32,000 nt of DNA from Ruminococcus albus 7 = DSM 20455. GTDB taxonomy: Bacteria > Bacillota > Clostridia > Oscillospirales > Ruminococcaceae. The DNA lies in NCBI RefSeq assembly GCF_000179635.2, contig NC_014833.1:840001-872000 (forward strand), in the 5' to 3' direction. Positions 1 through 28,921 of the stretch are shown piece by piece. Below the pieces are notes generated by a model. That model saw nothing but the letters and a program-made list of their open reading frames with translations, searched no databases and was not told the DNA's origin. How positions within the stretch are numbered: the first letter of the stretch is position 1; every line of letters begins with the position of its first letter. A program made the position numbers and the translations under genes.

Positions 1-855
1 TATAGTAATAGTAACAGCGTTTTTAATAGCGTTAGCAATGTCCCACTTGCCGTTGACTTTAACTGCAACAGCCAATTGATATGTCCTGCCGGGTGTAAGA
101 TTCTTGGGAGATGTGAAGACAGTAACATCAGCAGGGATATCAGAAGTCCACACTCTCCACTTGCCTGCTAAATATACAGCTATACCATACTTTTCAGCAT
201 TCACAACAGGATTCCAATTTAAACGTATCTGGTGATACTCTTCGCTTACTGCAGCTTTAACGAACATTTTCTTCGGATGAGGACAATTGGGTTCATCGAT
301 CAGCTTATACTTCAAGCCGTTTGCTTTTGCATATTTTTCAGCATATGAACCGCCGTAGCAGTTGATAGTTAAGTTCTTTAATGGCTTATATTCTCTTGCT
401 TTGTTATCATAGTATGTAAATGCGTTTTTTCCTATGCTTGTTACACTTTCAGGTATTGTTATAATTTCAAGACCCTCACATAATACAAATGCACTATTAT
501 CAATAGTTTTCACACTATCGGGAATAACAACATTTTTCATACTTCTACAACCTGCAAAAGCGAACGCTCCTATATACTCTAAGTTTCCAGAAAATGAAAT
601 ACTTTCAATACCAGCACAACCTGAAAACGTTCCTCTTTCAATACGCTCTACACCATCAGGTATAACAACACTCTTAATGTTTGCGCAACTCGAAAAAGCA
701 TTATCACCTATATTCTTCAAGCCCTTAGATAATGTAATACTTTTAAGGCTATCGCACCCCCAAAACGCCATTTCATTAATAAATTCAACGTCATCAGGTA
801 TAACGATATTTTTTATTTTACTACAACCTCCAAACGCATGCTCATCAATATATTT

Positions 856-1878
856 CATGGTTATCCCTTTAACACACCACAGATAATTTACAATGCTGTC
901 CAAATAAACAGACCTCAAAAACCGGAAAATATAGTATAATAGTGACAGGAAACGAAAGGAGCTGTCGCTATGTCAAAAAGATTTCCGAAACCTGAGATCA
1001 CACTTGATGGGATATACTCAAAGTTCGCAGATGAAAGCTTTTGCAAGGATTTTCTGCTTGATATCCGCTTTGAAAAGGGTTTTGCCTGCCCGTTTTGCGG
1101 TGGCTCTGAGTACCGCAGGATAAGGTCACGCCATCTGCTGCGCTGCAAGTTCTGTAAAGCAGATATATCCGCCACAAACGGAACTTTTATGCACAGAACA
1201 CATATTCCGCTCAGACTGTGGATAGTCACCGCATTCCTCATTATGAGCAACAAATGCAGCGTTTCTGCTGTTACGCTGATGAGGTCTTTGGGGGTGACCT
1301 ACAAGACTGCATGGTACATCCTTCACCGCATCAGAAAAGCTATGAAATGCCGTGAAGAACGTTATTTGCTGGACGGAATCGTTGAACTTGATGACACGTA
1401 TCTCGGTGCTCCGACTCACGGTAAAAAGCGTGGCAGAGGAACTGAAAAAGTCAAGATGATAGTAGCTTTGTCAAAGAACGCAGCAGGAAATCCCGAGTAC
1501 GTTAAAATGAGCGATGTGCCGAATTTAAAGGGCATAACTGTGGGTAGATTTGCCAGGGATAATATCCGCGCAGGCTCGAAGATCGAGAGTGATAATGCTC
1601 GAAGTTACAAGAAACCGCTGGCACAGAAATACTTCCATGTTTTTGAGACATATGATCCGACAAGCGGTCAGCTGAATTGGATGCATAAAGTTATATCAAA
1701 CTTCAAAGCAATGATCATGGGAACTTACCACGGAAACGAAAAGATCCACACAGCGTTATATGCTGCCGAATACTGTTACAAATTCAACCGCCGAAAGCTC
1801 GGGAATAGTGCTTATTTACGGCTTTTAGCTGCTTTGGTGCAGTGATCTTACTTGTGGTGTGTTAAGGGGATAACCATT
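856..1878 (+). mobile_element. IS1595-family insertion sequence, copy 1 (1023 bp)
   Basis: Terminal inverted repeats CATGGTTATCCCTTTAACACACCACA (left) and TGTGGTGTGTTAAGGGGATAACCATT (right). An 8-bp direct target duplication ATATATTT sits at 848-855 and 1879-1886. There is a single transposase ORF. A near-identical copy lies at 9271-10293. Confidence 0.85.
970..1845 (+). CDS. IS1595-family (ISXO2-like) DDE transposase with N-terminal zinc ribbon
   Basis: 291-aa ORF. Zinc ribbon CPFCGGSEY...CKFC followed by TNGTFMHRTHIPLRLW, then VELDDTYLG and IESDNARSY acidic motifs typical of ISXO2-like DDE transposases. RBS AAAGGAG lies upstream of the ATG. Confidence 0.9.
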   Translation: MSKRFPKPEITLDGIYSKFADESFCKDFLLDIRFEKGFACPFCGGSEYRRIRSRHLLRCKFCKADISATNGTFMHRTHIPLRLWIVTAFLIMSNKCSVSAVTLMRSLGVTYKTAWYILHRIRKAMKCREERYLLDGIVELDDTYLGAPTHGKKRGRGTEKVKMIVALSKNAAGNPEYVKMSDVPNLKGITVGRFARDNIRAGSKIESDNARSYKKPLAQKYFHVFETYDPTSGQLNWMHKVISNFKAMIMGTYHGNEKIHTALYAAEYCYKFNRRKLGNSAYLRLLAALVQ

Positions 1879-2324
1879 ATATATTTTAATTTTTCCGGTA
1901 ACGTAATTATTTCAATGCTATCACTATCAGAAAATGCATTGGCACATATAGCAGTAACATTGATCTCGGTACCATCATAACATTTTATCTGACTAGGAAC
2001 CTCGACCTCTGTTTCAGAACCATAGTACTTTATAATGCCGATAGTACCGTCTTCCAGCATAGTATACTCATAATCGCCAAAAGTAAGTACTTCCGCACTT
2101 GACGAAATAACTGCATTGTCCACCACTACGTTAGGCAAAATTGCACCGCCGAATACTAATGTCAGCGACAGCAGACCTGCTACTATCTTCTTTTTGTTCA
2201 TTATGTCCTCCTAAATATTGTTATAAAATCAAACGACACCCATCTTTCAACCTATACGACTAAATGTGTCGTTTGATGGCAATTGTCTGTCCTTTCGACA
2301 TTATGTCAATTGACAGTTTTCACC

Positions 2325-3617
2325 TTATCTGGCAGTAAGGACAAATGATCTTCTGTCGATATCATAGGTATCCCATTTACCGTTGATTTTGGCACATATA
2401 ACTATCTCATACTTATGACCGCGATACAGACTTGGCGACATATACTCATTAGAATCGGTATAAGCCTGAACTTTCCACTTGCCTGCGATCTTTACAGCAA
2501 CGCCGTACTCTTCAGCATCAGAAACTCTTGTCCAGAACATACGGAATCGGCGTGAATTCAGATCATACTCCATTGATAACAGACTTGGATAATAGCCCCT
2601 TCCCTGGGCATCAGTGACCCTGAATTTAATGCCGTTATCCAGAGCATAATTCATCGCCTCAGATTTTTTGTGAACAGTAATTTTAAGTTTCGGCAACGGC
2701 TTATAGCAATCATTCTCGTAATCGTATTTATCAAATACATGGCTTCCTATTTCAACTACACTTGAAGGTATAACTGCACCTTGAAGTGCTGTACAGTTTC
2801 CAAACACACCATTACCCAATTCAGTTACTTTATCCGGTATAGTTATATCTTTAAGACTTGTGCATCCGCAAAAGATATTGCTTTCGATAGACTTTAAATT
2901 TTCTGATAAAACAACACTCTTTAATTCTGTACAATATTCAAATGCCGATGATTTCAAAGAAGTAACTTTGTCAGGTATAACTATCGATTTCAATGACGAG
3001 CAAAATCCGAATACTCTTTCATCGACAGTCTTTAGTTTTTTTGATAAAGTTATGCTTTCAAGAGATGAACAACCCAGAAAAGCTGCTTTTCCAATAGAAA
3101 CAACTCTGTCAGGTATAACGATCTCTTTCAAAGCTTCACAATCGATGAATGCACCCTCACCGATAGTTTTCAAGTTATTCGATAAAGTTATATTTTCAAG
3201 ATTATCGCAGTCAAAAAAGGCATAAACACCAATGGATGTCACGCTGTCAGGCAGATCGATATCTACAAGACCATTGCAATCAGCAAATGCTTGTTCTCCT
3301 ATGATCTCCACACCATCGGGTATAATTATTTTTTCGATTTTTCTGCCATGAAATGCATCATCACAAATGGCAGTAACATATTCATCATTTATCTCCTCCG
3401 GTATCTCGACCACAGTATCACGACCCATGTATCCTGTTATACCGATAGTACCATCTTCAAGCACAGTGTAATAAAAATCACCGTATCTGAATTCCTCAGT
3501 TCTTTCCGCACTTGCAGATATAACTGTACTGCTGTTAACTGCCATATCAGGTACAGCTGCACCGCCAAATACGAATGTCAGCGCCAGCAGACCCGCCGTG
3601 ATTTTCTTGTTATTCAT
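2325..3617 (-). CDS. BspA-type leucine-rich-repeat secreted surface protein with diverged C-terminal conserved module
   Basis: The likely start is ATG at 3617 (MNNKKITAGLLALTFVFGGAAVP signal peptide) behind RBS AGGAGGT. About 10 repeats of IxIPDxVxxIGxxAFxxCxxLxxI. The C-terminus RFRMFWTRVSDAEEYGVAVKIAGKWKVQ...INGKWDT is a diverged copy of the shared module. Confidence 0.85.
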   Translation of the reverse strand: MNNKKITAGLLALTFVFGGAAVPDMAVNSSTVISASAERTEEFRYGDFYYTVLEDGTIGITGYMGRDTVVEIPEEINDEYVTAICDDAFHGRKIEKIIIPDGVEIIGEQAFADCNGLVDIDLPDSVTSIGVYAFFDCDNLENITLSNNLKTIGEGAFIDCEALKEIVIPDRVVSIGKAAFLGCSSLESITLSKKLKTVDERVFGFCSSLKSIVIPDKVTSLKSSAFEYCTELKSVVLSENLKSIESNIFCGCTSLKDITIPDKVTELGNGVFGNCTALQGAVIPSSVVEIGSHVFDKYDYENDCYKPLPKLKITVHKKSEAMNYALDNGIKFRVTDAQGRGYYPSLLSMEYDLNSRRFRMFWTRVSDAEEYGVAVKIAGKWKVQAYTDSNEYMSPSLYRGHKYEIVICAKINGKWDTYDIDRRSFVLTAR

Positions 3618-3803
3618 TCCATTACCTCCTGATTTTCTAAACAGATAAAACAAACGACATAAGATATCCGCTTATCCATGAGCATATATGTGCTATCATC
3701 CGGATAAGTATGAAAAATTATGTCGTTCGATAATTATTATATATCTTTTTAAATTGTATGTCAACAGGTTGTTACAAATTACTTTACAGTAACCTGTTAC
3801 ATA

Positions 3804-4076
3804 TTACTTAACAGTAACAGTCACAGCGTTCTTGATAGCGTTTGCAGTATCCCACTTGCCGTTTACTCTGGCTGCAATTGCAACTTTGTAAGTCTTGCCG
3901 GGAGTCAAACTCTTTGGAGTAGTATATGAAGTGCCAGTAATGTTCTTATCCTGAACCTTCCACTTGCCTGCCAGATAAACAGCTACGCCGTATCTATCAG
4001 CACCTTCGACCTTGTCCCATGTGAATCTTACCTGATGGTATTTTTTTCTTGCTATATTATTTTTAATTGAAAACAA
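3804..4076 (-). pseudogene. Orphan copy of the ~85-aa C-terminal module (no signal peptide or catalytic/LRR part; only a TTG start)
   Basis: YHQVRFTWDKVEGADRYGVAVYLAGKWKVQ...KVAIAARVNGKWDTANAIKNAVTVTVK is highly similar to the C-termini of the GH9 (20219-20480) and GH11 (23460-23730) enzymes. The frame closes immediately upstream and no ATG is present. Confidence 0.6.
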
Positions 4077-4853
4077 TAATTGCCAAAGTTTCTTTTATGT
4101 TCATAGTTAATTGAAAGGATATGTGGTAATAAACAGTGGGGGAGGGGAGTCAATCTTCTTTTTCAGCATCTGTTCCTAAGAAGACAGAACATAAGCTCAG
4201 CATAGGCTTCTTTCTGTATTTCTGTATAGCACTTCTGATAGAAACGAGCCGCCAATTATCTATATTATAATCTTCCGGAAGGGGAGTGGGGTCATCAAAC
4301 TCATCCAGCATAGCTTCTTTATTAGGTTTGGTAGGTTCTTTCGGGATCGAAACCAGAACTTCGATTTCGTGAGGAAGATTTGTTTCATTTTAACCCAAGA
4401 GTCTGTCACATTAGCCAATGTGGTGGGCTCTTATTTTTTAGGAAACTCAAAGCAATTTTCTTTACCTGATGCAAACACTGCTTGATATATATTGCATGAA
4501 ATCTGGATTTAGTTTTGTGCAAGTATCCAAAGCTCACTATAATGGTGGTAAAGTGCTTGATGCGTCACCAAGATGGTGGTATAATGTAATCAAGAAGAAG
4601 ATGATGAAACCTATACGAATAAGGATGGATATAAAACGGAACTGCCGAGCAGCTATTATAATCCCGACCAGATTTTCAATAATAAGGAATATGCTACGTA
4701 CTATTGGGAAGCTATTAAGATTCGTTTTGAAATAGTTTAAATTTTCGTCCGAAGTACTAACCTGGAATAAAGCTTAAAATAGAATAAATTCAGTAATTGT
4801 AAATGCAGAATATGAGAACGTCGTGACGATACATAAGGTGAAATAAACTTACT

Positions 4854-5141
4854 ATGAGTGATATGAAAAACGTATATACCGGAGCCTTTGGCAAAGTGAA
4901 TTCTCCCAAGGAACAGTATCAGATAATGAATGAAAACTACAGCAAAATATGCCTGGAATTTGCTGGAATATGCCGTAGATACCGACTTATGCTAGATGAA
5001 AAGTTCAAGGAGATAGTTAGGCTTAGAGATGAAGTGATAAAGCATCAAAATACTATCTCTGCGCAAAATCGGCAGATAAGAAATCTGCAAAAGGAAAATT
5101 CTAAGTTAAAGAAAGCATTGCAAAAACAAAAAAAGAAATAA
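4854..5141 (+). CDS. Hypothetical small coiled-coil protein
   Basis: 95-aa ORF. The C-terminal half is heptad-like and K/E/Q-rich (RLRDEVIKHQNTISAQNRQIRNLQKENSKLKKALQKQKKK). No recognisable family. Confidence 0.4.
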   Translation: MSDMKNVYTGAFGKVNSPKEQYQIMNENYSKICLEFAGICRRYRLMLDEKFKEIVRLRDEVIKHQNTISAQNRQIRNLQKENSKLKKALQKQKKK

Positions 5142-5220
5142 ACGGAAAATCATAAAAAAATCTAAGATACAAAAACGTACCAGCTTATATTGGGCACCTT
5201 TTCTTCCTAGTGCGGATGAA

Positions 5221-5502
5221 ATGTATCCGCTTTACAACTGGGCACTGGAAAATCCTCAGTGGTGGATAACCGGATTTGATCCAAACTGGAAAAATAAGGT
5301 TGACTGTATTAACGGAATGGATTGGCCACTAATGAAAGAAAATCTGATTATGATTGGTTCTGTTGATTTGAGTCAGTTTTCTGATGAAGCAATTGATGAG
5401 ATAATGGAAAAAGTTAATGATTCAAATCAGGATGTGATTGTAGATAAAAATAATAAAACTATATGGATAGTATTCGGAAATATGATTGGGAGTAGGGTAT
5501 GA
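5221..5502 (+). CDS. Hypothetical small protein, translationally coupled to the downstream lipoprotein
   Basis: 93-aa ORF. Its stop overlaps the next start (ATGA at 5499-5502). It shares a VDLSQ(F/V)..E.I.D motif with the 6734-6982 product. Confidence 0.45.
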   Translation: MYPLYNWALENPQWWITGFDPNWKNKVDCINGMDWPLMKENLIMIGSVDLSQFSDEAIDEIMEKVNDSNQDVIVDKNNKTIWIVFGNMIGSRV

Positions 5503-6119
5503 AGATCAAAATAGCGTTAAGTATTTTGACTATAATAATACTTTGTTTTTCATCATGTGGTAATGTGTATGAGAATTTACATTCTGATATCGAAAATCAG
5601 AGCATTGAGTCCAATGAAGAAAGCAACTATACTGAAGATAATAATATCGGTAATGATCTTAAAACTCGAAAGATAACACATGGCTATAAACGTGTGATCG
5701 ATGAATATGCTGAAAAAGCAATGGCGTGTTTTGTTAGTAAAGATACAGAAGGTTTATTATCGTTGTTTTCAGATATGTCCAATGAAAACTATTCTCTTGG
5801 TGATGAAATAGATAGAGCCTATGATTTTCTGGGTGGAGATATAATTTCTTTTGGTGAAATAGAATCGCATACGGGAGGATCGACTTTTGGCGGCGGACAT
5901 ACGAGCCGACAGACAGGTACATCATATATATACGAAGTGAAAACGGATAAAGATGAATTTGAGATTTTTATTGGTTGTGTAATAATCAATGACGATGACA
6001 TATCTCAGGTTGGTATCCAGAATATAAAAATCAAGAATTCAAGCTTTGATATTAATGATCCTGATAAAGAAGAAAATATGGTATCGATTGGCGAATTTTT
6101 AGGCAGTTGGTATGGTTAA
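5499..6119 (+). CDS. Putative lipoprotein (paralog A)
   Basis: Signal peptide with lipobox-like LCFSSC|GN. Paralogous to 6141-6734 (GEIESHTGGSTFGGGHTSRQTG...IGCVIINDDDISQVGIQNIKI versus GEINHTFGGKTFGGGNVSRLTG...INCVMKYDDDNSEIGIQNINI). Confidence 0.7.
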   Translation: MKIKIALSILTIIILCFSSCGNVYENLHSDIENQSIESNEESNYTEDNNIGNDLKTRKITHGYKRVIDEYAEKAMACFVSKDTEGLLSLFSDMSNENYSLGDEIDRAYDFLGGDIISFGEIESHTGGSTFGGGHTSRQTGTSYIYEVKTDKDEFEIFIGCVIINDDDISQVGIQNIKIKNSSFDINDPDKEENMVSIGEFLGSWYG

Positions 6120-6140
6120 GCTTATTGGAGGATATCTATA

Positions 6141-6734
6141 ATGTACAAAATAAAACTTATGATAGTGCTTGTTTTATCATGTACGTTTCTTTATTCTTGT
6201 ACATCTGATATTAGCAGTATCCATGATGAGTCAGAAGAACTTAAAATCGCAGAAAGTTCTTTGGCTGAAAGATTCAACCCTCTTACCGATTATAAAAAAT
6301 ATGGAAAACAGATGGATGATTTTGCAGAAGATGTTGCGAATGGCTTTATAAACAAAGACTACGAAATGATAAAACAGAATTTCTGTCAGAGATCCCTTGA
6401 TACTTACGATCTGGATACGGATATAAATAATGTTTTTGAAAAGATCGGTTCTGATATATTATCATATGGAGAAATTAATCATACATTTGGAGGGAAAACA
6501 TTCGGCGGTGGAAATGTCAGCAGATTGACGGGTTCGGTTGAGATCGATGATGTTAAAACTGAAGATAATTCATATGTGATACATATAAACTGTGTAATGA
6601 AGTACGATGATGACAATTCAGAGATTGGTATACAAAATATCAACATAACTCCAAGTGATTGGAAGGCTCGTGAAGATCCGGAGCATGAGTATTTTTGGGA
6701 TATCGGCGAGGTATATGACAGTTGGAATTGGTGA
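6141..6734 (+). CDS. Putative lipoprotein (paralog B)
   Basis: Signal peptide with lipobox-like FLYSC|TS. RBS GGAGGA upstream. Paralog of 5499-6119. Confidence 0.7.
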   Translation: MYKIKLMIVLVLSCTFLYSCTSDISSIHDESEELKIAESSLAERFNPLTDYKKYGKQMDDFAEDVANGFINKDYEMIKQNFCQRSLDTYDLDTDINNVFEKIGSDILSYGEINHTFGGKTFGGGNVSRLTGSVEIDDVKTEDNSYVIHINCVMKYDDDNSEIGIQNINITPSDWKAREDPEHEYFWDIGEVYDSWNW

Positions 6735-6982
6735 TGCTTGATGTTTATAAATGGAGTGAAGGCTTATCAGAAGGAGATTTATTTAATCTGAATTATTATG
6801 GCCTTGCAAGAATATTTAAAGATTATGGTTGCTATGAAACTACCATAACATGGAAAAAGGGATCTAGATACCCCAATTTAAGTGGCTATGGTGTAGTTGA
6901 TTTATCTCAAGTGGATTTTGAAGGCATTTCCGATCCGATTGTGAATAGCACAACTATTTTACTTAATTCCCTAGTGGTCTAG
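6734..6982 (+). CDS. Hypothetical small protein
   Basis: The ATG at 6734 overlaps the TGA of the upstream lipoprotein gene (TGATG). Weakly related to the 5221-5502 product. Confidence 0.45.
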   Translation: MLDVYKWSEGLSEGDLFNLNYYGLARIFKDYGCYETTITWKKGSRYPNLSGYGVVDLSQVDFEGISDPIVNSTTILLNSLVV

Positions 6983-7374
6983 TTGTACTCGTTAACACGC
7001 AGCAGAGTTATGTACTCAAATCATTCACGTTTAATAACAATAGCTGAACGAAGCATAGCTCTTTTTGAGAAACCAGATCTGACGACTTTGATAGTTGATT
7101 CGGGCAACTCAGAAAGATCTGAGCTTTGAAAAAGTAGATCATAAAACCTCGCCTTTTCGATACAGAAGAAACGGTAAAATTACCTTGCATAATTTTGATA
7201 ACAGCAACTCCATTAGGTGTTTTTTCTTGCAATGATATAATTCAAGAATAATTGGCTGTTTTCTATAATTATATAGTGACTCATTGAAAATTATTAGTTC
7301 TGAAACTACGTGATTATATTGGATTTTAAAGCTTTGCTTGGAGCTATACAGATAGCTAGTGGAGGTGTTTATCA

Positions 7375-7914
7375 TTGAAAATCAATAAATTTTTGAATGC
7401 TTCAATATTTATTCTTTTAGGACTTGTTGTTTTTATTGCGTTGTTAAGCAAATATTTTGAACTATGCAGCAATAAAATCACTATGCTTTCTTTATGTGGG
7501 TATATATTATGTTTAGATTTGGTGCTATTAATTGCAAAATATATTATCTTAAGAAAAAAAAGATTTGCTATACTATCAGCTATTGGATGCTTGTTTTTGA
7601 TCTGCTGTGTTTTCATTGTCAATAATGATATAATAAATATTAAAGCAAGTTACAACGTTTATTCAACGGATAAATACTCGGTAATAGTAAGGTTAAATGA
7701 ATCTTTTATTTCTGGAAGATGTGATATATATATAAAAGAAAACAATATCATTATGAAAAAGGTTGGATATCCTTTAGGTGTTCCCCAAAAGTATGATCCT
7801 ATTGCAACAGAAAATTACAAGATAGATGATAATAAGTCTTCGATAATTCTTAAAATAAAATGTGATCCCAACAGAGATGAGTATGAACTTATTGAAATAC
7901 AAAGAGATAATTGA
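7375..7914 (+). CDS. Hypothetical membrane protein (3 predicted N-terminal TM helices)
   Basis: TTG start 7 nt after RBS GGAGGTG. Hydrophobic stretches FILLGLVVFIALL, LCGYILCLDLVLLIA and ILSAIGCLFLICCVFIV. Followed by a strong terminator. Confidence 0.55.
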   Translation: MKINKFLNASIFILLGLVVFIALLSKYFELCSNKITMLSLCGYILCLDLVLLIAKYIILRKKRFAILSAIGCLFLICCVFIVNNDIINIKASYNVYSTDKYSVIVRLNESFISGRCDIYIKENNIIMKKVGYPLGVPQKYDPIATENYKIDDNKSSIILKIKCDPNRDEYELIEIQRDN

Positions 7915-7932
7915 GTGAATAAAAATGAACTG

Positions 7933-7980
7933 AAATAACACTTATTCAAGAAATATTCTTGAATGAGTGTTATTTTGTTT
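7933..7980 (+). terminator. Rho-independent terminator of 7375-7914
   Basis: An ~18-bp stem AAATAACACTTATTCAAG / CTTGAATGAGTGTTATTT (one G-U pair) followed by TTTTGTTTT. Confidence 0.7.
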
Positions 7981-8079
7981 TCCACACCAATGCAGATGTT
8001 TTCCTATGTTTTCTCGTAAGCGTATAACCCCCCGCATCATAAAAGCAAACAGCCGGGCAGATAACACCCGGCTGTAACA

Positions 8080-8619
8080 TCATATTCTGGCTTTGATTTC
8101 TCCATTTCTCTTTGCGTCCATGTATATTTCTTTGAAATCAGCTTTGCTGTTCGGACCGAATATGATCGGCATAACAGATACAAGGCCATCGGAAATGATC
8201 GCATTTTTAAATGGCAGAAGCGCTGCATCAAGCAAAGTTGGCATCGGTGCATTTCTCAGCATTTCCTCCCAACTGCTGACAATGCCGTTTACAAGAAAAA
8301 CAGAATTGTCATCGATCGATATAAATACCGATCCCTTTTTCAAATGTCGCTCAATGATAAATCTGCCGGTGATGCACCCTTTCCAGCTTTTAAGTATCTC
8401 CATGTGTTATTCGGGCAGATCCGATCGCTCAAGATAATCATCAATGATCCATGTCCGTTCCCATAAAAAGTGGGCAACCTCCGCAGCATCCTGTGGGTCG
8501 ATCATTCCTTGCCCGAAATAATCTTCCTCAGGAAGTATATGATATTCTCTGTTCACATAGTCAAGCAGTGGAAAAAACAGTTCATAAAACAGCTTTGCAT
8601 CTTCATTACTAAGTTTCAT
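8080..8619 (-). pseudogene. IS66 passenger ORF of unknown function, read as one ~178-codon frame interrupted by an in-frame TAA (or as two ORFs of 70 and 107 aa)
   Basis: It lies inside the IS66 inverted repeats, downstream of tnpC. Its ATG (8619) overlaps the tnpC stop by 11 nt and follows GGAGGG. 8407-8619 and 8080-8403 are in the same frame, separated only by TAA-CAC (..SDLPE*HMEILKSW..). Confidence 0.45.
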
Positions 8620-9270
8620 TTTCTTCCCTCCATGGTAATAATATCGTTCCCGCAGGCTGTGAAAACAGCTCGGTCAGGTATTTCTCAGCATCAACACCGT
8701 TCGCCTGTGCAGTTGAAATGATCGAATACAGCGTTGCACTTGATCTGGCTCCGTTTGCTGTATTTGAAAACAGCCAATTTTTTCGGCCTAACGCAAACGG
8801 TCTTATTGCGTTTTCGGCTCTGTTGTTGTCGATAGGCACGTCTCCGTTTTCAAGAAACGTGTAAAGATATTTCCGTTCATTCAACGCATATCTTACTGCA
8901 TCTGTCAGCTTGCCCTTACCACTGACCTGAACATTTTCAAGCCACGCAAAAAACTCGTCAAGCAAAGGCTTTACCTTCACAAGGCGCTGTTTATATCTGT
9001 ATTCTGTGGAGCTGTCGGCAAGCAGATTTTCTTCGTGATATATCTTGTTGAAATATTCTACTGCCTTTGCCGCAACAGAAGTGCTGTGCAGCTTTTGGTC
9101 GTTCGGAAGAGCCTGAATAAAACCACGCCTTGCATGAGTCATACAGCCGCATCGCTTAGCACCCTCGACTGCATTGTAGGCATCGTATCCGTCACAGATA
9201 AGATAGCCGATAAATCCTTTCAGGAAATTCGAGGCGTGCTCACCCTTTCGTGTCGGCTGATAATCGAAAA

Positions 9271-10293
9271 CATGGTTATCCCTTTAACACACCACAGATA
9301 ATTTACAATGCTGTCCAAATAAACAGACCTCAAAAACCGAAAAATATTGTATAATAGTGACAGAAACCGAAGGGAGCTGTCGCTATGTCAAAAAGATTTC
9401 CGAAACCTGAGATCACACTTGATGGGATATACTCAAAGTTCGCAGATGAAAGCTTTTGCAAGGATTTTCTGCTTGATATCCGCTTTGAAAAGGGCTTTGC
9501 CTGTCCGTTTTGCGGTGGCTCTGAGTACCGCAGGATAAGGTCACGCCATCAGCTGCGCTGCAAGTTCTGTAAAGCAGATATATCCGCCACAAACGGAACT
9601 TTTATGCACAGAACACATATTCCGCTCAGACTGTGGATAGTCACCGCATTCCTCATTATGAGCAACAAATGCAGTGTTTCTGCTGTTACGCTGATGAGGT
9701 CTTTGGGGGTGACCTACAAGACTGCATGGTACATCCTTCATCGCATCAGAAAAGCTATGAAATGCCGTGAAGAACGCTATTTGCTTGACGGGATCGTTGA
9801 ACTTGATGACACGTATCTCGGTGCTCCGACTCACGGTAAAAAGCGTGGTAGAGGTACTGAAAAAGTCAAAATGATCGTAGCTTTATCAAAGAACTCAGCA
9901 GGAAATCCCGAGTACGTTAAAATGAGCGATGTGCCGAATTTAAAGGGTATAACTGTTGGTAGATTTGCCAGGGATAATATCCGCGCAGGCTCGAAGATCG
10001 AGAGTGATAATGCTCGAAGTTACAAGAAACCGTTGGCACAGAAATACTTCCATGTTTTTGAAACATATGATCCGACAAGCGGTCAGCTGAACTGGATGCA
10101 TAAAGTTATATCAAACTTCAAAGCAATGATCATGGGAACTTACCACGGAAACGAAAAGATCCACACAGCGTTATATGCTGCCGAATACTGCTACAAATTC
10201 AACCGTCGTAAGCTGGGAAACAGTGCGTATTTAAGGCTTTTGGCTGCTTTGGTGCAGTAATCTTACTTGTGGTGTGTTAAGGGGATAACCATA
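9271..10293 (+). mobile_element. IS1595-family insertion sequence, copy 2 (1023 bp), nested in IS66 tnpC
   Basis: Same inverted repeats as copy 1. 8-bp target duplication ATCGAAAA at 9263-9270 and 10294-10301. Confidence 0.85.
9385..10260 (+). CDS. IS1595-family (ISXO2-like) DDE transposase
   Basis: 291 aa. It differs from the copy-1 protein at only two residues (L56Q, A171S) in the supplied translations. Confidence 0.9.
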   Translation: MSKRFPKPEITLDGIYSKFADESFCKDFLLDIRFEKGFACPFCGGSEYRRIRSRHQLRCKFCKADISATNGTFMHRTHIPLRLWIVTAFLIMSNKCSVSAVTLMRSLGVTYKTAWYILHRIRKAMKCREERYLLDGIVELDDTYLGAPTHGKKRGRGTEKVKMIVALSKNSAGNPEYVKMSDVPNLKGITVGRFARDNIRAGSKIESDNARSYKKPLAQKYFHVFETYDPTSGQLNWMHKVISNFKAMIMGTYHGNEKIHTALYAAEYCYKFNRRKLGNSAYLRLLAALVQ

Positions 10294-11243
10294 ATCGAAA
10301 ATGATGATGCTCCTGTCATTCATTTTGCCGTTGCAGTAGACCCACATTCTTGATGTCGTGGTAGGCTTTCGGCCTTCCTCGTGAAGCACCTGAACGGTCG
10401 TTTCATCGGCATGGATCATCTGCCCTGCGATAAGCGTCTCATGCATTTTCTCCACAATCGGCAAACACCATTTTTCGGCAGCAGTGCCTACCCAATTAGA
10501 CATAGTCGCTTTGAGCAGAGGTATGTTTTTGGAATTAAAGTCCTTTTCCTGACGGTGCAGAGGTACTGACTTTGCATATTTTTCGTAGATGATATGAGCC
10601 AGAAGTTCGGGAGAGCAATAGCTTCCCGGGATCATAGCGTGAGGATATGGCGCACGGATGATATGACAAGGTTCGTCCCTTTCTTCGGGCTTTTCTCCGC
10701 ACTCGGGACACTTGTACTTATGTACTATATGCCTGCGGATATGATATTTTGGCGGCGTAAATATAAGTTCATCGTAAGCCTTTTCGGGAGTCAGTTCTTC
10801 CATTTCGGCGCCGCATATTTCGCATACCGGGTTGTCAATTTTGTGATGTTCTTCTTTTACAGGCAGATTGTTCATCCATTCATCGTGAGTGCGTTTTTTC
10901 TTGCGCTTGTGTTCGGGAACAGTAATTGTTTCGGCAGATTTAGCTGCGGATTTTTCTTCATTGTTTCCGAACATGGAAAGCTGAACACCGAACTCCTTTT
11001 CCATAACAACAGATGTCTGCTCTGTTTTTCTTCCGAATATCTGCTTTCTGAACCACGCTAACTGCTGATTGGCAAGTGCTAGTTCTTCCTTGAGAACAGC
11101 GTTTTCATTACGGAGCGATACAATTTCCGATGTCATATTTGGTTCGGACATAAAGCACCCCTCCGTTCGTTATGATACTTTAATGATACCACGAAAAGAG
11201 GGGCTTTTCAAGCACATATTCTGAATATTCGGTAAGTATTGCC

Positions 11244-11600
11244 TTAATACAGCGCCCCCGGCTTTCCCTCACGGATAGCCTTCGGCTGCTCTATTTTCAA
11301 GCCTTCCAGAAGCCAGCGAATTTGCTGAGATGTGAGCATTACTGCTTCGGTCTCACTGCGCGGCCACTGGAATCTTCCGTTGTCAAGGCGCTTGTACAAC
11401 AGCAGAAAACCATCGCCCTCCCACAGCAGACCTTTGATGCGGTCACAACGTCTGCCGCAGAACAAAAACAATGCTTTCGAGAACGGGTCAAGTCGAAGCT
11501 GAGCCTGAACGATAGTCGCAAGTCCGTCTATCCCGCGTCGAAGGTCGGTGTATCCCGTAACAAGATAGACCTGTGCGTCCGCTGCCAGATCATTCAGCAT
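11244..11600 (-). CDS. tnpB: IS66 Orf2 (TnpB) accessory protein
   Basis: 118 aa. YLVTGYTDLRRGIDGLATIV...LFLFCGRRCDRIKGLLWEGDGFLLLYKRLDNGRFQWP is the hallmark IS66 Orf2 sequence. Its start overlaps the tnpA stop. Confidence 0.85.
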   Translation of the reverse strand: MLNDLAADAQVYLVTGYTDLRRGIDGLATIVQAQLRLDPFSKALFLFCGRRCDRIKGLLWEGDGFLLLYKRLDNGRFQWPRSETEAVMLTSQQIRWLLEGLKIEQPKAIREGKPGALY

Positions 11601-11911
11601 AGCTCATGCACCAAAGCGGTCAGAGTGTCCGCAGATATATCTGCCGGAAGAGATATTTGAAGTCCGTTTTTCTCAATGCGGATATTTTCGTTTGAGCAAG
11701 GAACTGATACAGGAACGATGGTCGGAGAATTTTCGATATACTTTTCACGAACTTTTCTTAGGCGGTTGTAATACGTGTTTGGCTTGATCCCTTTTTCTTT
11801 GCACCATTCCCGGATCGTCAGACCGCTTGCCTGCTGTGCTTTGATCTGCGCAGACCATTCCTGAAGCTGCATTTCTTTTTTGATTGTTGTGATGGATGTT
11901 GTTTTGTCCAT
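11594..11911 (-). CDS. tnpA: IS66 Orf1 (TnpA) HTH accessory protein
   Basis: The likely start is ATG at 11911 (MDKTTSITTIKKEMQLQEW) after RBS GGAGG. Contains the helix-turn-helix-like GLTIREWCKEKGIKPNTYYNRLRKV. Confidence 0.75.
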   Translation of the reverse strand: MDKTTSITTIKKEMQLQEWSAQIKAQQASGLTIREWCKEKGIKPNTYYNRLRKVREKYIENSPTIVPVSVPCSNENIRIEKNGLQISLPADISADTLTALVHELC

Positions 11912-12132
11912 ACCTGTTACCTCCTTGTCTAATCGTCTCCAATGAACTCCATGGATCAATTTGGATTATTCAATTTACTTCATGGTGTTCCTTGGAGTTT
12001 ATTATACTTTATTAGACTTCGGTGGGGTAGGTGCTGGGGGTTATACGCTTACGTTTTCTCTATAAAAATCTTTCGTAAGAGTAAAATATTATGCGCCTTT
12101 CCCTCTAGAGGCAAAAATGGTATAATAGAGTC

Positions 12133-12571
12133 CAACGGCAGAGTTTCCGCAGATATATCTGCCGGAAGAGATATTTGAAGTCCGTTTTTCTCAATGCGGA
12201 TATTTTCGTTTGAGCAAGGAACTGATACAGGAACGATGGTCGGAGAATTCTCGATATACTGTTCGCGGACTTTTCTTAAGCGGTTGTAATACGTGTTAGG
12301 CTTGATCCCATTTTCTGCGCACCATTCTCTGACCGTCAGTCCGCTCGCCTGCTGCGCTTCGATCTGTGCAGACCATTCCTGCAGCTGCATTTCTTTTTTG
12401 ATTGTTGTGATGGATGTTGTTTTGTCCATACCTGTTACCTTCTTGTCTAATCGACTCCAATGAACTCCATGGATCAATTTGGATTATTCGATTTACTTCA
12501 TGGTGTTCCTTGGAGTTTATTATACTTTATTAGACATTGGTGAGCTAGGTGCGGAGGGGTTTGATGCTTAC
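12133..12571 (-). mobile_element. Truncated left end of a second, related IS66-family element (inverted repeat plus 5' part of tnpA only)
   Basis: The terminal sequence GTAAGCATCAAACCCC (reverse complement ends at 12571) is related to the IS66 inverted repeat. The tnpA' frame (start about 12429) closely parallels 11594-11911, with several substitutions, up to ...ISLPADISAETL. Homology then stops near 12133. Confidence 0.7.
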
Positions 12572-12607
12572 GGAATTACTTCAAAACTATAACTCATAAT
12601 ATAAAGC

Positions 12608-13593: not shown

Positions 13594-13703
13594 TTTTGAG
13601 AAGTCATATCCTGATGGCAGACTGTCAAAAGTCTTGCCTGAACCTTTCAGAGCAACGAAAGGATTGTATCACAAAAATGAGAAATTGTCAAGTGCGTCTT
13701 AAC

Positions 13704-14165
13704 ATGAATTATGAGATATGCATCGAAGAAAGCTCACCTGTCAAAGTATTGAGCAATGTTATAGATGAGATCTATCAAAAAGAGGAATACACGATAGTAA
13801 GCAAGTGGAATGGCGCCATACCCGAGGATATTATGATGAAGATACTCATCTACGGCTACATGAACGACTCTTTTTCAAGCCGTAAGATTGAACAGCTCTG
13901 CAAAAGAGATATCCATTTCATGTGGCTTCTCGATGGCTTTGGAGCTCCGGATCACAGCACTATCTCAAGATTTCGACAGAAAATTGGAGAACAGATCGAG
14001 CGTGTGTTTTACGCTGTTGTAAAGTATCTTTTGAATATGAAAGAGATAAGCGGTGAGAACCTGTTCATTGATGGCACCAAGATCGAAGCTAATGCAAACA
14101 GATATACATTCATCTGGAAAAAGGCGGTCTCAAAAAACGAACAGAAAACGATGGCTATATTATAA
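13704..14165 (+). pseudogene. IS1182-family transposase, N-terminal fragment only
   Basis: IPEDIMMKILIYGYMNDSFSSRKIEQLCKRDIHFMWLLDGFGAPDHSTISRFRQ...ENLFIDGTKIEANANRYTFIWKK is the N-terminal (DUF772-like) part of IS1182/IS5-type transposases. The DDE domain is absent and homology ends near 14150. Confidence 0.65.
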
Positions 14166-17480: not shown

Positions 17481-20400
17481 ATGCACAAGAAAATGAAACG
17501 TATCGTTGCAGGGCTTGTGGCAATTACCGGTGCTTTATCGGCAACAGCCGCATCTGCACCTATGAGTGTGTTTGCAAAAAATGAACAGATAATTATTCAG
17601 TCTGACTTCAATGCAGGAATGGGTCTTCCCTGGCGCACATTCGAGAATGCACCGGCACGGCAGGACTTCGATATTTCAGACGGCACTTACAATATAACGA
17701 TACAGAATAACGATGGTCCCGAGTCAAGATGGGATCTTCAGTTCCTTTACAAAAATTTCTATATACAAAAAGGTCATACTTACAAGGTACACTGGAAGGT
17801 CAATTCTTCCAATGAGGGTGAGCTGTATACTAGGATCGGTAATTACGGCGGAACTGTTGAAGTTTGGCACAACAACTGCGGCAATGATGATTTCAATCAG
17901 ACGTGGGAATGCGTAAAGATCGCTAAAGGCGACAACACCTTCGATGCTGAGTTTACAGCTAAAGAAGATATGGATCGTGCTTGCTGGATATTTGATTACG
18001 GCGGACAGGGTCAGTATCAGCCGGTAGATTGCTTCCCCAACGGTACGGTCCTCAAATTCGACGATCTGTCTTTGATCGACACTACTTCCGGGGGCTGTAT
18101 AATCGATTTCATTCCTAACGATTGGGGCATTGTAAGACCCGAAAGCAACGTTCGTCTGAATCAGATCGGTTACTATCCTCAGCTGGAAAAGAGGGCTTCT
18201 TATGTTACCGATGCTGATATGCCACTGACTTTTGAGATACGTGACAGATCGGGCAACGTAAAGTACACAGGCAAGACGAAGGTATTCGGCAGCGATCCTG
18301 ATTCGGGTACAGGTAAGGATACAGTTGTTAATTCGGTCACAAGATACAAGGACTCGGGTGCCAACGTACATATCATTGATTTCTCTGATTTCAGAACTGT
18401 GGGCGAGTACACTATATTCGTTAAGGATACAGTCGGCGTAAGCGGCACTCAGGTGATGGGTTCTAAGAAAGTAAACGATACAAGGCTAAGCGGTGATAAG
18501 CTTTTATGGACAAATCCCGTTACTATGAAAACTTATACGATGAACGAGAGCAGTACATTCAGGATAGACAGACAGATCTATGATGATCAGCTGCTGAGGG
18601 ATTCCATGAACTACTTCTATCAGAACCGCTCAGGAGTCCCGATAAAGTCTGAGTACATCACATCAGGTGATAAGTCCGCACTGTCACACCTTAAATATGG
18701 TCATAACCCCGATATGGCTTATGTACAGAGCAAATGGGTAAAGACTTACGAAGATGACTTCTCTGATGGCGAGAAGGATAAGAAGATCGACGTTACAGGC
18801 GGATGGTACGCTGCAAGCGACCACGGTAAGTACGTTGTCGAAGGCGGTTTCTCCGTATGGACACTTCAGAACGCTTATGAGTTCTCCAAGAGGAGCGGCA
18901 ATACTCGCAAGTGGACTGACGGCACTATAGCTGTCCCCGAAAATAAGGATAATGCTCCCGATATACTGGATGAAGCAAGGGTAGAGCTGGAGTGGATGTT
19001 CAAAATGATAAATGAGGACGGCTTTGTATATCATTCAGTGCAGGACTATAAGTGGGCAGATATTCCGATCAGGTTAGGGCCCATATACTGTACGGACCCC
19101 CCAATGGAGTACACTTATCCTTACCGTATCGTCAGACCTCCTACGTATGCAGCCACATTCAACATGATCGCTTGTGCTGCACAGGCTTCACGTCTGTGGA
19201 AGGGCATAGATGATGACTTCGCAAAAGAGTGTCTGCAAAATGCACAGAACAGCTGGAAGGCTATCATGGCTAAGCAGTCCAATTGGAACGTTACAAGTGG
19301 CTATTACTATGATGATCCTTACTTTGCTCCCAGTGAATCCGGCGGAAACAACTTTTTCGGTGACACCTATGTAGTTGACGATGCTTACTGGGCAGCTTGT
19401 GAGCTTTATGCTACAACAGGGGACTCGGCTTACTATGGCTTCTTAAAAAACTATAAAAATTATAATGATCCGTCAGGTCAGGATAAGGCATTCAGCCTGA
19501 CTTCCTGCCTGAGCGGTGGTGAGAACAACGGTTCGTTCGGTTCCTTCAATTGGGGCAATACTGCGGGTCTGGGTACCCTTTCACTCTACCTGAGCGACAA
19601 GACATCTTCTGCTGACAGGAAGACTATTGTCAATTCTATCAAAAATATTGCTGACCAATATATTATTCAGATGAGTAAAGAAGGTATGGGCATACCTTAC
19701 AAGAGTGCGACTGTCGGGGGCTATATCGGTATCGGTGATGGAGATGTGTACACAGGTTATGAATACGGCTCCAACTCATTCGTTATCAACAACGCTATGG
19801 TCCTTGCATATGCTTATGATACTGATAACAGCAAATATATTTATCGGAACGGTGCTGCCGAAGCACTTGATTACCTCTTCGGACGCAACGGTCTGGGCTT
19901 CTCTTATGTATCAGGCTACGGCGATAAGGCAATGAGATCGCCACACCACAGATACTGGGCACAAAGTATTGATCCGTACTTCCCGGCGGCACCCTCAGGT
20001 GTTCTTGCAGGCGGTCCATGCTCAGATCTGTATCATGATAAATATCTTCGTGGTCTCGGCTATAAAAGAGGCACTTTAGCTGATCAGAAGTGCTATGTTG
20101 ACAGTGCAGAGGCATGGTCTGTAAATGATGTTTCCGGCAGCTGGAATGCTCCTCTGGTCTGGATGTCATCATTCATGAACGATCGTTTCGGCGGTCCGAA
20201 ACCAGTCCCCTATCCTACCAACATTAAGGTCGATTACAGTGAGGAGTATCATCAGGTAAGATTTACCTGGAACAAGGTGGAAAACGCTGACAGATACGGC
20301 ATAGCAGTTTATCTGGCAGGCAAGTGGAGAGTTCAGAAACAGGATATCACAGGCACTACCTACACTTCTCCCAAAAATCTGACTCCCGGCGTAACTTATA

Positions 20401-20483: not shown

Positions 20484-20514
20484 TAGACTTCATTGATCCA
20501 ATTTATTAAAAACA

Positions 20515-23169: not shown

Positions 23170-23303
23170 AAATAACACCTCATGTTTTGAGTCGATTTAC
23201 TGACACGGACAGACCTCTGTCAAAGTGAAATTGAGGTCTGTCCAGATTACCGTTACAAATTATATCACATTTCCATGTAAATTTCAATATGATATTATAA
23301 AAA

Positions 23304-23445
23304 ATGGCTATCCCCTTAACACACTGCACGCAAAATCACTGCACCAAAGCAGTCGATAGCCTTAAATACGCACTGTTTCCAAGTTTACAGCAGTTGGATC
23401 AGTAGCAGTATTCGGCAACATATAACGCTGTGTGGATCTTTTCGC
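23304..23445 (-). mobile_element. Truncated, diverged third IS1595-family copy (right-end ~140 bp only, inverted orientation)
   Basis: ATGGCTATCCCCTTAACACACTGCACG...CACTGCACCAAAGCAG...AGCAGTATTCGGCAACATATAACGCTGTGTGGATCTTTTCG aligns by eye (mostly matching, with scattered mismatches) to the reverse complement of 10141-10293. Homology ends 11 bp before the xylanase stop codon. Confidence 0.75.
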
Positions 23446-23456
23446 CTACTCAGTTA

Positions 23457-25184: not shown

Positions 25185-25886
25185 TCATCTTGTGATATTA
25201 GCAATAGCGGCGGATATAACATCTTCTACGCCGCAGACTTTATCAATTTTATCCTTGTCGGGAGCATTCCTTAGTTCTGCGATACCTGCTCTCCACAAAA
25301 CCAGAGTATTTACATTCAGTGAATCTATCCGCTGTGACATGGCACTGTTGCGGGTGTACATATCAGATATCATCATAATACCTTGTGATGCTATGTTTGC
25401 CGAGATTACAAGGTCGTTTATTTTTTTATCTGCAAGGATCTGGTAGTATTTCCAGTCGGTATCTTTATCTTTGTTTTTCATATGTTCACTCAATGCGGCT
25501 GATGCTTCATTAAGCTCCTGTATGCAGCACTCCAGCACTTGTTTCATGGTGTCAAGCAGCATATTCTCTTTGTATAGTCCTATGTATATTTCCTGAAAGC
25601 TATCGGATATCCTCTGGGCTTCTTTGTCAGCTTTTTCAGCATTGTCAATGAGTCTTGCGTAGCTTATAGTTCCCACAAATCCCTTGTATTTTGCCAGACC
25701 GTTTATCTTTAGCTGGTCTGAAGCAAGGGTCAGGACATTTATAGCTTTGTCAGGCATCCTATCCTGCTGTATTCTGAATAACATATCTGATGTATCAGCT
25801 ATTCTCTTCTGAACATCTCCTGCATATGAGGGGAGAAGTTCAAAGGTCATCATATCGGGGGTATATTTCTTGGTACTATTCAGCAT
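25185..25886 (-). CDS. Short TelA-like (toxic anion resistance/YaaN-KlaB family-like) helical protein; gene 4 of the operon
   Basis: 233 aa, all-helical in character. ADKKINDLVISANIASQGIMMISDMYTRNSAMSQRIDSLNVNTLVLWRAGIAEL parallels the conserved TelA core (..DKR.HDL..S.Q...Q...I.....N.....KI.S......PLWK.Q..), recalled from memory. Its start overlaps the upstream stop (ATGCTGA). The ORF call is solid; the family call is moderate. Confidence 0.65.
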   Translation of the reverse strand: MLNSTKKYTPDMMTFELLPSYAGDVQKRIADTSDMLFRIQQDRMPDKAINVLTLASDQLKINGLAKYKGFVGTISYARLIDNAEKADKEAQRISDSFQEIYIGLYKENMLLDTMKQVLECCIQELNEASAALSEHMKNKDKDTDWKYYQILADKKINDLVISANIASQGIMMISDMYTRNSAMSQRIDSLNVNTLVLWRAGIAELRNAPDKDKIDKVCGVEDVISAAIANITR

Positions 25887-28911: not shown

Positions 28912-28921
28912 ATCCTTCCAC

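What the first reader, a model, noticed from the sequence alone, without database searches (positions are those of the whole stretch)
848..1886. Recently active IS1595-family element: two near-identical copies, one inactivating an LRR surface-protein gene
Copies at 856-1878 and 9271-10293 are the same length, and their transposases differ at only two residues (L56Q, A171S). Each copy has a different 8-bp target duplication (ATATATTT, ATCGAAAA), so they arose by independent recent insertions. Copy 1 splits a secreted BspA-type LRR protein whose frame is otherwise undamaged. This suggests a very recent knock-out of a surface protein, possibly a form of surface variation.
Basis: seen in the sequence. 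Interest (0 to 1): 0.4.

Follow-up and report, generated by a model that had tools for sequence, protein, structure and literature searches.

The report
Ordinary IS1595 insertions in Ruminococcus albus
Two copies of a common 1-kb jumping gene (IS1595 family) sit in this stretch of the rumen bacterium Ruminococcus albus 7; one has cleanly knocked out a surface-protein gene that is intact in wild relatives, but the copies are two diverged alleles rather than fresh duplicates, and all of this is ordinary.

Summary
The sequence facts hold. Two 1023-bp elements lie at 856-1878 and 9271-10293. Each has ~28-bp terminal inverted repeats, one 291-aa transposase (Zn ribbon + DDE_Tnp_IS1595) and a perfect 8-bp target duplication. 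The transposases differ only at L56Q and A171S.

"Near-identical" fails at the DNA level. The copies differ at 35 of 1023 bases (96.6% identity; 26 synonymous sense-codon changes, 2 non-synonymous; dS 0.154, dN/dS 0.019). That is about ten times the synonymous divergence (0.012-0.016) between the interrupted host gene and its uninterrupted allele. Copy 2 is closer to a copy in another Ruminococcus genome (98.7%) than to copy 1. They are two old alleles that inserted separately, not recent daughters of each other.

Copy 1's knock-out is real and young. Five metagenome contigs carry the empty site with a single ATATATTT, flanks 99.2-99.5% identical and an intact 391-aa LRR gene. Copy 2 splits an otherwise intact IS66 tnpC, inside an 8.8-kb segment that two of those contigs lack.

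The window is R. albus 7. GenBank already annotates these genes as IS1595-family transposases, and the strain has at least 10 copies. Nothing supports reversible surface variation. Low interest.

The parts
848..855 (.). Left copy of the 8-bp target duplication ATATATTT of IS copy 1
   Evidence: Identical to 1879-1886. Present once in the empty site of L001-L005.
856..1878 (+). IS1595-family insertion sequence, copy 1 (1023 bp). Left inverted repeat about 857-886, right about 1848-1877.
   Evidence: Inverted repeats I8/I12 and end alignment. Absent from the otherwise collinear contigs L001-L005.
970..1845 (+). Transposase gene of copy 1 (291 aa; GenBank ADU21282.1). N-terminal CxxC...CxxC zinc ribbon, DDE-type domain, AGGAG ribosome-binding site 8 nt upstream.
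   Evidence: Pfam PF12760 + PF12762. NCBIfam NF033547. Invariant C40, C43, C59, C62, D141/D142, D208, H239, K246, R274, R275 in 29 relatives. The exact protein is found in 326 blocks of the public collection.
1879..1886 (.). Right copy of the target duplication ATATATTT
1887..2201 (-). 5' part of the interrupted LRR surface-protein gene (signal peptide and first repeats). As it stands it reads into the IS and ends after 117 aa (ORF 1848-2201; ADU21283.1).
   Evidence: ORF list. The exact 117-aa product is on record in R. albus 7 assemblies and 8 runs.
1..855 (-). 3' part of the same gene: BspA-type LRRs plus a C-terminal CBM37-like module. It runs off the window one codon before the stop (ADU21281.1 fragment).
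   Evidence: Restored ORF of 390 aa with LRR_5 at 2.7e-49. 99% identical to the intact 391-aa P0001. The C-terminal module is 61% identical to that of the GH9 enzyme and 56% to that of the GH11 enzyme in the window.
9263..9270 (.). Left copy of the target duplication ATCGAAAA of IS copy 2
   Evidence: Identical to 10294-10301.
9271..10293 (+). IS1595-family insertion sequence, copy 2 (1023 bp). A different allele: 96.6% identical to copy 1.
   Evidence: Alignment A1, difference table, allele matrix.
9385..10260 (+). Transposase gene of copy 2 (291 aa; ADU21292.1; Q56, S171). The same protein is encoded at a second locus of strain 7 (ADU22441.1).
10294..10301 (.). Right copy of the target duplication ATCGAAAA
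8016..12053 (-). IS66-family element that is the target of copy 2. tnpC is split into 8609-9270 and 10302-11151. tnpB is at 11244-11600 and tnpA at 11594-11959. Ends are GTAAGCG... inverted repeats, and its own 8-bp duplication is GTTTTCTC.
   Evidence: Pfam IS66 domains. Inverted repeat I16. Restored tnpC is an intact 503-aa ORF, the same length as the intact relative P0268 at 97% identity.
23297..23444 (-). Decayed remnant of the right end of a third IS of the same kind (83-86% identical to the live alleles), truncated next to the stop codon of a GH11-CBM37 gene
   Evidence: Inverted repeats I3/I4, sequence, identity matrix.

Best explanation
The window comes from Ruminococcus albus 7 (= DSM 20455). 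It holds two separately inserted copies of one multi-copy IS1595-family insertion sequence, 1023 bp long, with ~28-bp terminal inverted repeats and one zinc-ribbon + DDE transposase. Each copy inserted into AT-rich DNA by ordinary transposition and duplicated 8 bp of target.

Copy 1 landed in codon ~108 of a gene for a secreted BspA-type leucine-rich-repeat protein. That protein carries the R. albus-type C-terminal cell-surface anchoring module (CBM37-like). The insertion leaves a 117-aa signal-peptide stub and a 3' fragment without a signal peptide, which is a plain loss of function. The next gene downstream is convergent in the collinear contigs, so polar effects are unlikely. Copy 2 landed in the tnpC transposase gene of an IS66 element and inactivated it.

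Shown: both target genes are otherwise intact, and the LRR empty site survives in wild relatives at 99.2-99.5% identity. Both insertions are therefore young relative to strain divergence.

The two IS copies are not young relative to each other. They are distinct alleles (dS 0.15) kept nearly identical in protein by strong purifying selection (dN/dS 0.02). This matches an IS population in which only lineages with a working transposase keep propagating, within and between R. albus strains.

Inferred, not shown: that transposition is still going on, and that the LRR knock-out has any phenotypic or adaptive meaning.
For: Family and anatomy:
- Pfam and NCBIfam hits above curated cut-offs; inverted repeats.
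- Perfect 8-bp duplications at both window copies and at copies in other genomes: L006 TTATATAA, L021 ATTAAAAA, L022 TTATATTA, L023 TTCAGTTT.
- The zinc-ribbon cysteines and D/D/H...K residues invariant among 29 relatives are intact in both copies.

Knock-out:
- The restored ORF is 390 aa, LRR_5.
- The intact 391-aa allele P0001 lies on 5 contigs from 5 samples. The alignments to the two window flanks overlap by exactly the 8-bp duplication, and the empty-site sequence is identical in all five.
- The gene after the LRR gene is on the opposite strand in L001-L003.
- The 3' fragment has no signal peptide.

Age:
- IS copy 1 versus copy 2: dS 0.154, dN/dS 0.019.
- Copies in other genomes encode a protein identical to copy 1 yet show dS 0.147-0.166 against it.
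- Host gene versus the empty allele: dS 0.012-0.016.
- Copy 2 is 98.7% identical to L007. L021 and L022 are 100% identical.

Source and copy number:
- ADU21281-ADU21283 and ADU21292 belong to R. albus strain ATCC 27210 / 7.
- Three transposase isoforms occur at >=4, 2 and >=4 loci.
- The draft contig JHYT01000096.1 is 100% identical to window 1678-8353.

Distribution:
- All 15 genome hits lie in R. albus, Ruminococcus sp. or a rumen Oscillospiraceae MAG.
Against: - No direct evidence of current transposition.
- I could not align the other strain-7 copies at DNA level, so a recent burst within each allele is neither shown nor excluded.
- The copy-2 isoform carries Q56 where 15 of 16 relatives at >=50% identity have L, in the zinc ribbon. 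It could be impaired, although a second locus encodes the same protein.
- No consensus sigma-70 promoter was found upstream of tnp.
- CBM37 identity of the C-terminal module rests on architecture and the literature, not on a profile match. Pfam gives only a weak fn3 hit and PDB gives nothing.
Confidence: 0.9

Rival explanations
1. The two copies are very recent daughter copies of one another in this genome.
For: Same length, same ends, and only 2 amino-acid differences.
Against: - 35 nt differences, dS 0.154, about ten times the host-gene dS against the empty allele.
- Copy 1 has 18 private sites and copy 2 has 10, relative to each other and to six close alleles from other genomes.
- Copy 2 is closer to L007 (98.7%) and L023 (97.8%) than to copy 1.
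- Truly fresh copies are 100% identical (L021 = L022).
Confidence: 0.03
2. The insertion is part of a reversible or recurrent surface-variation mechanism. The IS moves in and out of LRR/CBM37 surface-protein paralogues and switches them off and on in the population.
For: - The locus holds several paralogous surface-protein genes with a shared C-terminal module.
- A decayed IS end abuts another CBM37 gene at 23297-23444.
- The target gene is otherwise intact.
Against: - All nine assemblies recovered for this strain (one NCBI draft, eight Logan runs) carry the occupied junction.
- Empty sites were found only in backgrounds that differ at 6-7 nt in the gene.
- The other insertions seen are in an IS66 gene and in unrelated or intergenic contexts, so there is no sign of preference for surface genes beyond AT-rich 8-mers.
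- From general knowledge: no precise-excision mechanism is known for this family.
Confidence: 0.05
3. The LRR gene is an old decaying pseudogene and the IS is incidental.
For: GenBank annotates two separate fragments (ADU21283.1 of 117 aa, ADU21281.1 of 302 aa).
Against: After removal of the IS, the reading frame is open over all 390 codons in the window. It is 99% identical to a 391-aa intact allele, with 3 non-synonymous and 3-4 synonymous differences.
Confidence: 0.02

Closest known systems
IS1595 family of bacterial insertion sequences (Pfam DDE_Tnp_IS1595 / Zn_ribbon_IS1595; NCBIfam NF033547)
   Same: Single transposase ORF with an N-terminal zinc ribbon and a C-terminal DDE-type domain, about 1 kb long, terminal inverted repeats, 8-bp target duplications. 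These match the family features summarised in PMC8101967 and were tested.
   Different: Nothing structural. An ISfinder name and isoform number could not be looked up with these tools.
ISSod11 subgroup of the IS1595 family
   Same: The catalytic signature is D142, D208, H239 with K at +7 (K246), followed by E267, K271 (+4) and R274 (+7). The ends begin CATGGTTATC. From my memory of Siguier et al. 2009 and ISfinder, ISSod11-type elements are 1.0-1.1 kb, make 8-bp duplications, have ends nnnGcnTATC and carry a DDHK + E-R4-R7 signature.
   Different: Position +4 after E267 is K in these copies; most relatives have R. The subgroup definition was not checked against a reference sequence here, and a published tree did not recover ISSod11 as monophyletic (PMC8101967).
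IS-mediated insertional inactivation of bacterial surface-protein genes
   Same: A simple insertion with a target duplication inside the coding region separates the signal peptide from the rest of the protein.
   Different: Some textbook cases are reversible by precise excision (general knowledge). Here the occupied allele looks fixed in the strain, and no revertant was seen.
CBM37-bearing cell-surface proteins of Ruminococcus albus (PMC4081043)
   Same: A C-terminal module of about 90 aa is shared by GH9 and GH11 enzymes and by non-catalytic proteins of R. albus. The LRR protein's module is 56-61% identical to those of the GH11 and GH9 enzymes in the window.
   Different: No CBM37 profile or reference sequence was available, so the assignment is by architecture and organism only.

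Membership tests
IS1595 family | Transposase with a DDE_Tnp_IS1595 catalytic domain | tested here: met
   PF12762 at 1e-21, 78 bits against a cut-off of 27. NF033547 at 1.3e-47, 162.5 bits against a cut-off of 75. D141/D142, D208, H239 and K246 are invariant in 29 relatives.
IS1595 family | N-terminal zinc-ribbon domain (in all groups except IS1016; PMC8101967) | tested here: met
   PF12760 at 1.4e-10, 41.4 bits against a cut-off of 25.4. C40, C43, C59 and C62 are invariant.
IS1595 family | Single transposase gene between terminal inverted repeats | tested here: met
   One 291-aa ORF. The other ORFs inside the element are short antisense or overlapping ones. Inverted repeats are 30 nt at 90% complementarity.
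IS1595 family | 8-bp target-site duplication | tested here: met
   ATATATTT and ATCGAAAA in the window. The empty site holds a single copy. Four further perfect 8-bp duplications occur in other genomes.
IS1595 family | Demonstrated transposition | not testable with these tools
   Only indirect evidence: occupied versus empty alleles, at least 10 loci in strain 7, and 100% identical copies in another genome.
ISSod11 subgroup | DDH-K(+7) and E-R4-R7 signature, with ends nnnGcnTATC (definition recalled from memory) | tested here: inconclusive
   H239/K246 and E267/K271/R274 are present, and the ends begin CATGGTTATC. No reference ISSod11 sequence or ISfinder search was available.
BspA-type LRR protein (Pfam LRR_5) | LRR_5 repeats in a protein with a signal peptide | tested here: met
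   PF13306 at 2.7e-49 on the restored protein. The N-terminus MNKKKIVAGLLSLTLVFGGA... is signal-peptide-like by inspection.
CBM37 module | Sequence match to the CAZy CBM37 family | not testable with these tools
   No Pfam model hit and no PDB relative. Indirect support: the same module ends the GH9 and GH11 enzymes, the architecture described for R. albus in PMC4081043.
IS66 family (target of copy 2) | tnpA-tnpB-tnpC organisation, GTAAGCG-type inverted repeats, 8-bp duplication | tested here: met
   PF01527 (below its cut-off), PF05717, and PF03050 + PF13005 + PF13007. Inverted repeats at 8015-8036 / 12032-12053. Duplication GTTTTCTC. The inverted-repeat and duplication criteria are from general knowledge.
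IS-based phase variation | Both occupied and precisely restored alleles in one clonal population | tested here: not met
   All nine assemblies recovered for this strain carry the occupied junction. Empty sites occur only in diverged backgrounds. Read-level data were not available.

The most novel reading that the evidence does not exclude
IS1595 insertion into CBM37-anchored LRR surface-protein paralogues could be a recurrent, selected route by which R. albus lineages shed or vary individual surface proteins. Possible drivers are phage or host pressure, or long laboratory passage of the type strain. On that reading the strain-7 knock-out would be one adaptive instance rather than a neutral accident.
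Probability: 0.07. Interest if true: 0.4.

Novelty: already known. Interest (0 to 1): 0.12.

Why it matters
It matters little beyond annotation.
- It shows that two gene fragments in the R. albus 7 reference genome (ADU21283.1 and ADU21281.1) are halves of one LRR/CBM37-like surface-protein gene. An IS split that gene, and it is intact in rumen populations.
- Anyone using the type strain to study adhesion or surface proteins should know that it is a natural mutant for this gene.
- It is also a useful caution. Near-identical transposase proteins do not prove recent duplication. Here purifying selection hides a synonymous divergence of 0.15 between co-resident IS alleles.

Tried and rejected
- The plasmid collection gave no match to the IS.
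- The single JGI metagenome scan with the flank + duplication pattern only re-found contig L002, which is an empty site. It found no occupied junction.
- The GTDB genome scan did not return strain 7 itself. A DNA-level census of the other strain-7 copies was therefore impossible, and the copy number rests on GenBank accessions.
- The look-up of encoding contigs reported the copy-2 protein as 'not on record', although the cluster table holds it. I treat this as a difference between indexes.
- L029 looked like a second strain carrying the same insertion (99.5% identity). Its mismatches all lie in the first 57 nt, inside the paralogous CBM37-like repeat, so I rejected it as an assembly artefact.
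- The consensus promoter scan found nothing upstream of tnp.
- A PDB search with the C-terminal module found nothing.
- Literature searches for the DDNK signature, the assembly and run accessions, and IS elements of R. albus returned nothing usable.
- I ran no structure prediction or RNA-family search, because nothing in the element called for them.

Full report

Yes, at the stated coordinates.
- The repeat search finds the pair 856.. and 9271.., and inverted repeats at both elements' ends.
- Each element is exactly 1023 bp.
- The flanking 8-mers are perfect direct repeats: ATATATTT at 848-855 and 1879-1886, ATCGAAAA at 9263-9270 and 10294-10301.
- The ends read C-ATGGTTATCCC[T/C]TTAACACACCAC..., with 30-nt arms 90% complementary.
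- Each element holds one 291-aa ORF (970-1845 and 9385-10260). The two proteins differ only at L56Q and A171S.

**2. Family**

- The transposase passes the curated cut-offs of Pfam DDE_Tnp_IS1595 (78 bits against 27) and Zn_ribbon_IS1595 (41.4 against 25.4).
- It also passes NCBIfam NF033547 'IS1595 family transposase' (162.5 bits against 75).
- These domains, the single ORF and the 8-bp duplication are the family features summarised in PMC8101967.
- In an alignment with 27 relatives down to 42% identity, these residues are invariant: C40, C43, C59 and C62 of the zinc ribbon, D141/D142, D208, H239, N244, K246, R274 and R275. E267 is nearly invariant.
- H239 with K at +7, E267-K271-R274, and ends beginning CATGGTTATC fit what I remember of the ISSod11 subgroup (Siguier et al. 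2009). I could not check this against a reference, so it stays a lead.

**3. The two copies are not near-identical in DNA**

- They differ at 35 of 1023 positions (96.6% identity). The split is 26 synonymous sense-codon changes, a TGA/TAA stop change, 2 non-synonymous and 6 non-coding changes.
- Nei-Gojobori estimates are dS = 0.154, dN = 0.0029 and dN/dS = 0.019.
- Copies from other genomes that encode a protein identical to copy 1 still differ from it at 28-31 nucleotides (L021-L024: dS 0.147-0.166, dN 0).
- Copy 2 is closer to the copy in MAG RUI259 (L007, 98.7%) than to copy 1.
- Relative to six close alleles and to the other window copy, copy 1 has 18 private sites and copy 2 has 10. Seven of copy 1's private sites lie in a patch at IS positions 939-972, and four of those match a distant (80%) allele. 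This may be a conversion tract.
- Two copies within another R. albus genome are 100% identical (L021 = L022). That is what a fresh transposition looks like.
- So the window holds two old alleles of one IS, held constant in protein by purifying selection.

**4. The insertions themselves are young**

*Copy 1*
- Deleting copy 1 and one duplicated 8-mer restores a minus-strand ORF that is open for 390 codons to the window edge. It has a signal-peptide-like N-terminus and BspA-type LRR_5 repeats (2.7e-49).
- A protein search finds a 391-aa intact allele, P0001, at 99% identity.
- P0001 is encoded on five contigs from five metagenome samples.
- BLASTN shows these contigs are collinear with both window flanks at 99.2-99.5% identity. 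The two alignments overlap by exactly 8 bp.
- All five contigs read ...GAAAAATTAAAATATATTGATGAGC..., with a single copy of the 8-mer.
- The gene differs from the empty allele at 6-7 of 1170 nt, of which 3 are non-synonymous (dS 0.012-0.016). That is about a tenth of the divergence between the two IS copies.

*Copy 2*
- Deleting copy 2 restores a 503-aa IS66 tnpC. This is the same length as the intact relative P0268 at 97% identity.
- The host IS66 element (8016-12053) has GTAAGCG-type inverted repeats and its own 8-bp duplication, GTTTTCTC.

**5. Consequence for the LRR gene**

- The 5' part now ends after 117 aa, with ten IS-encoded residues.
- The 3' part has no signal peptide. The CAT at the IS terminus happens to give an in-frame ATG at the junction.
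- In the collinear contigs the next gene downstream is convergent, so polar effects are unlikely.
- The C-terminal ~90 aa is 61% identical to the C-terminus of the window's GH9 enzyme and 56% to that of the GH11 enzyme.
- This is the architecture described for CBM37, the R. albus-specific module that anchors proteins to the cell surface (PMC4081043). No profile was available to test the assignment directly.

**6. Source and copy number**

- The exact 117-aa stub is GenBank ADU21283.1. The transposases are ADU21282.1 and ADU21292.1, and the 3' fragment is ADU21281.1. All belong to Ruminococcus albus strain ATCC 27210 / 7, on a 3,685,408-bp replicon.
- Strain 7 equals DSM 20455, and NCBI now names it Hominimerdicola alba.
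- The draft contig JHYT01000096.1 matches window 1678-8353 at 100%. It breaks inside both IS elements.
- Eight Logan assemblies also end in the occupied junction.
- The accessions show the copy-1 isoform at >=4 loci, the copy-2 isoform at 2 loci, and a third isoform at >=4 loci in strain 7, so at least 10 copies.
- In GTDB representative genomes the IS occurs only in R. albus strains (AR67, KH2T6, 8), in rumen or colon Ruminococcus MAGs and in one rumen Oscillospiraceae MAG.
- Perfect 8-bp AT-rich duplications flank the copies in L006 and L021-L024. None flank those in L008-L011 and L014.

**7. Interpretation**

- This is ordinary IS biology. A multi-copy IS1595-family element exists as several alleles in R. 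albus. One copy has made a clean, fairly recent knock-out of one of many paralogous LRR surface proteins in the type strain. Another copy is nested in an IS66.
- Copy 2 lies in an 8.8-kb segment (3787-12595) that contigs L001 and L003 lack. It may have arrived with, or after, that variable DNA.
- There is no evidence for reversible surface variation. Only occupied junctions are seen in this strain's assemblies, and empty sites occur only in diverged backgrounds.

**8. Novelty**

GenBank already annotates these genes as IS1595-family transposases flanked by LRR fragments. I add the element's ends, the empty site, the allele divergence and the reconstruction of the gene. Interest is low.

Noticed in passing
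window 3787-12595: An 8.8-kb segment is absent from the otherwise collinear metagenome contigs L001 and L003, which join window 12596 to 3786 with 2 bp between them. Contigs L002 and L004 contain at least its first part. The segment holds a CBM37-only 90-aa ORF, small lipoprotein-like ORFs and the IS66 that carries IS1595 copy 2. It is strain-variable DNA.
   Followed up: partly
window 23297-23444: A decayed 148-bp right-end remnant of a third IS of the same kind, inverted and 83-86% identical to the live alleles. It is truncated 9 bp from the stop codon of the GH11 + CBM37-like gene.
   Followed up: partly
window 11621-11920 and 12139-12438: The IS66 tnpA region is duplicated at 94% identity. 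A second tnpA-like ORF (12049-12477) lies just outside the IS66 right end, which suggests a remnant of another IS66 copy. A similar sequence lies next to a truncated IS1595 in R. albus 8 (L012).
   Followed up: no
window 152-239, 2470-2557, 3955-4042, 20247-20485, 23455-23695: One C-terminal module of about 90 aa (CBM37-like) ends two LRR proteins, a GH9 cellulase, a GH11 xylanase and a stand-alone 90-aa ORF. This produces the dispersed 64-79% DNA repeats in the window.
   Followed up: partly
window 856-858: The terminal CAT of the IS reads as ATG on the minus strand. It is in frame with the 3' LRR fragment (M-KYIDEH...), and the frame stays open for 24 more codons into the IS. GenBank calls a 302-aa product here. 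This is probably coincidental.
   Followed up: partly
IS copy 1 positions 939-972 (window 1794-1827): Seven synonymous changes private to copy 1 fall within 34 nt. Four of them match a distant (80%) allele, L011. This may be a gene-conversion tract between IS variants.
   Followed up: partly
window 30363-31688 (-) and 13596-14165 (+): More mobile-element genes. A 441-aa TnpB-like protein scores 69.8 bits on NCBIfam guided_TnpB, below the cut-off of 100. A truncated IS1182-family transposase covers its N-terminal 189 aa. In R. albus AR67 (L020), an IS1595 copy sits next to sequence 90% identical to window 31885-32000.
   Followed up: no
window 25185-30037 (-): A four-gene minus-strand cluster: a 714-aa AAA_5 ATPase, a DUF7192 protein and two proteins with no family assigned. 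Its function is unknown, and it could be phage- or defence-related.
   Followed up: no
L002 478-977 / L004 (between window 4378 and 4379): The metagenome contigs carry an extra 500 bp that encodes the start of a 183-aa ORF. R. albus 7 lacks it, so there is another indel polymorphism in this region.
   Followed up: no
L021 and L022 (GCA_000526775.1): Two copies of the IS in another R. albus genome are 100% identical and have different perfect 8-bp duplications (ATTAAAAA and TTATATTA). This is good evidence for recent transposition of the element in that strain.
   Followed up: yes
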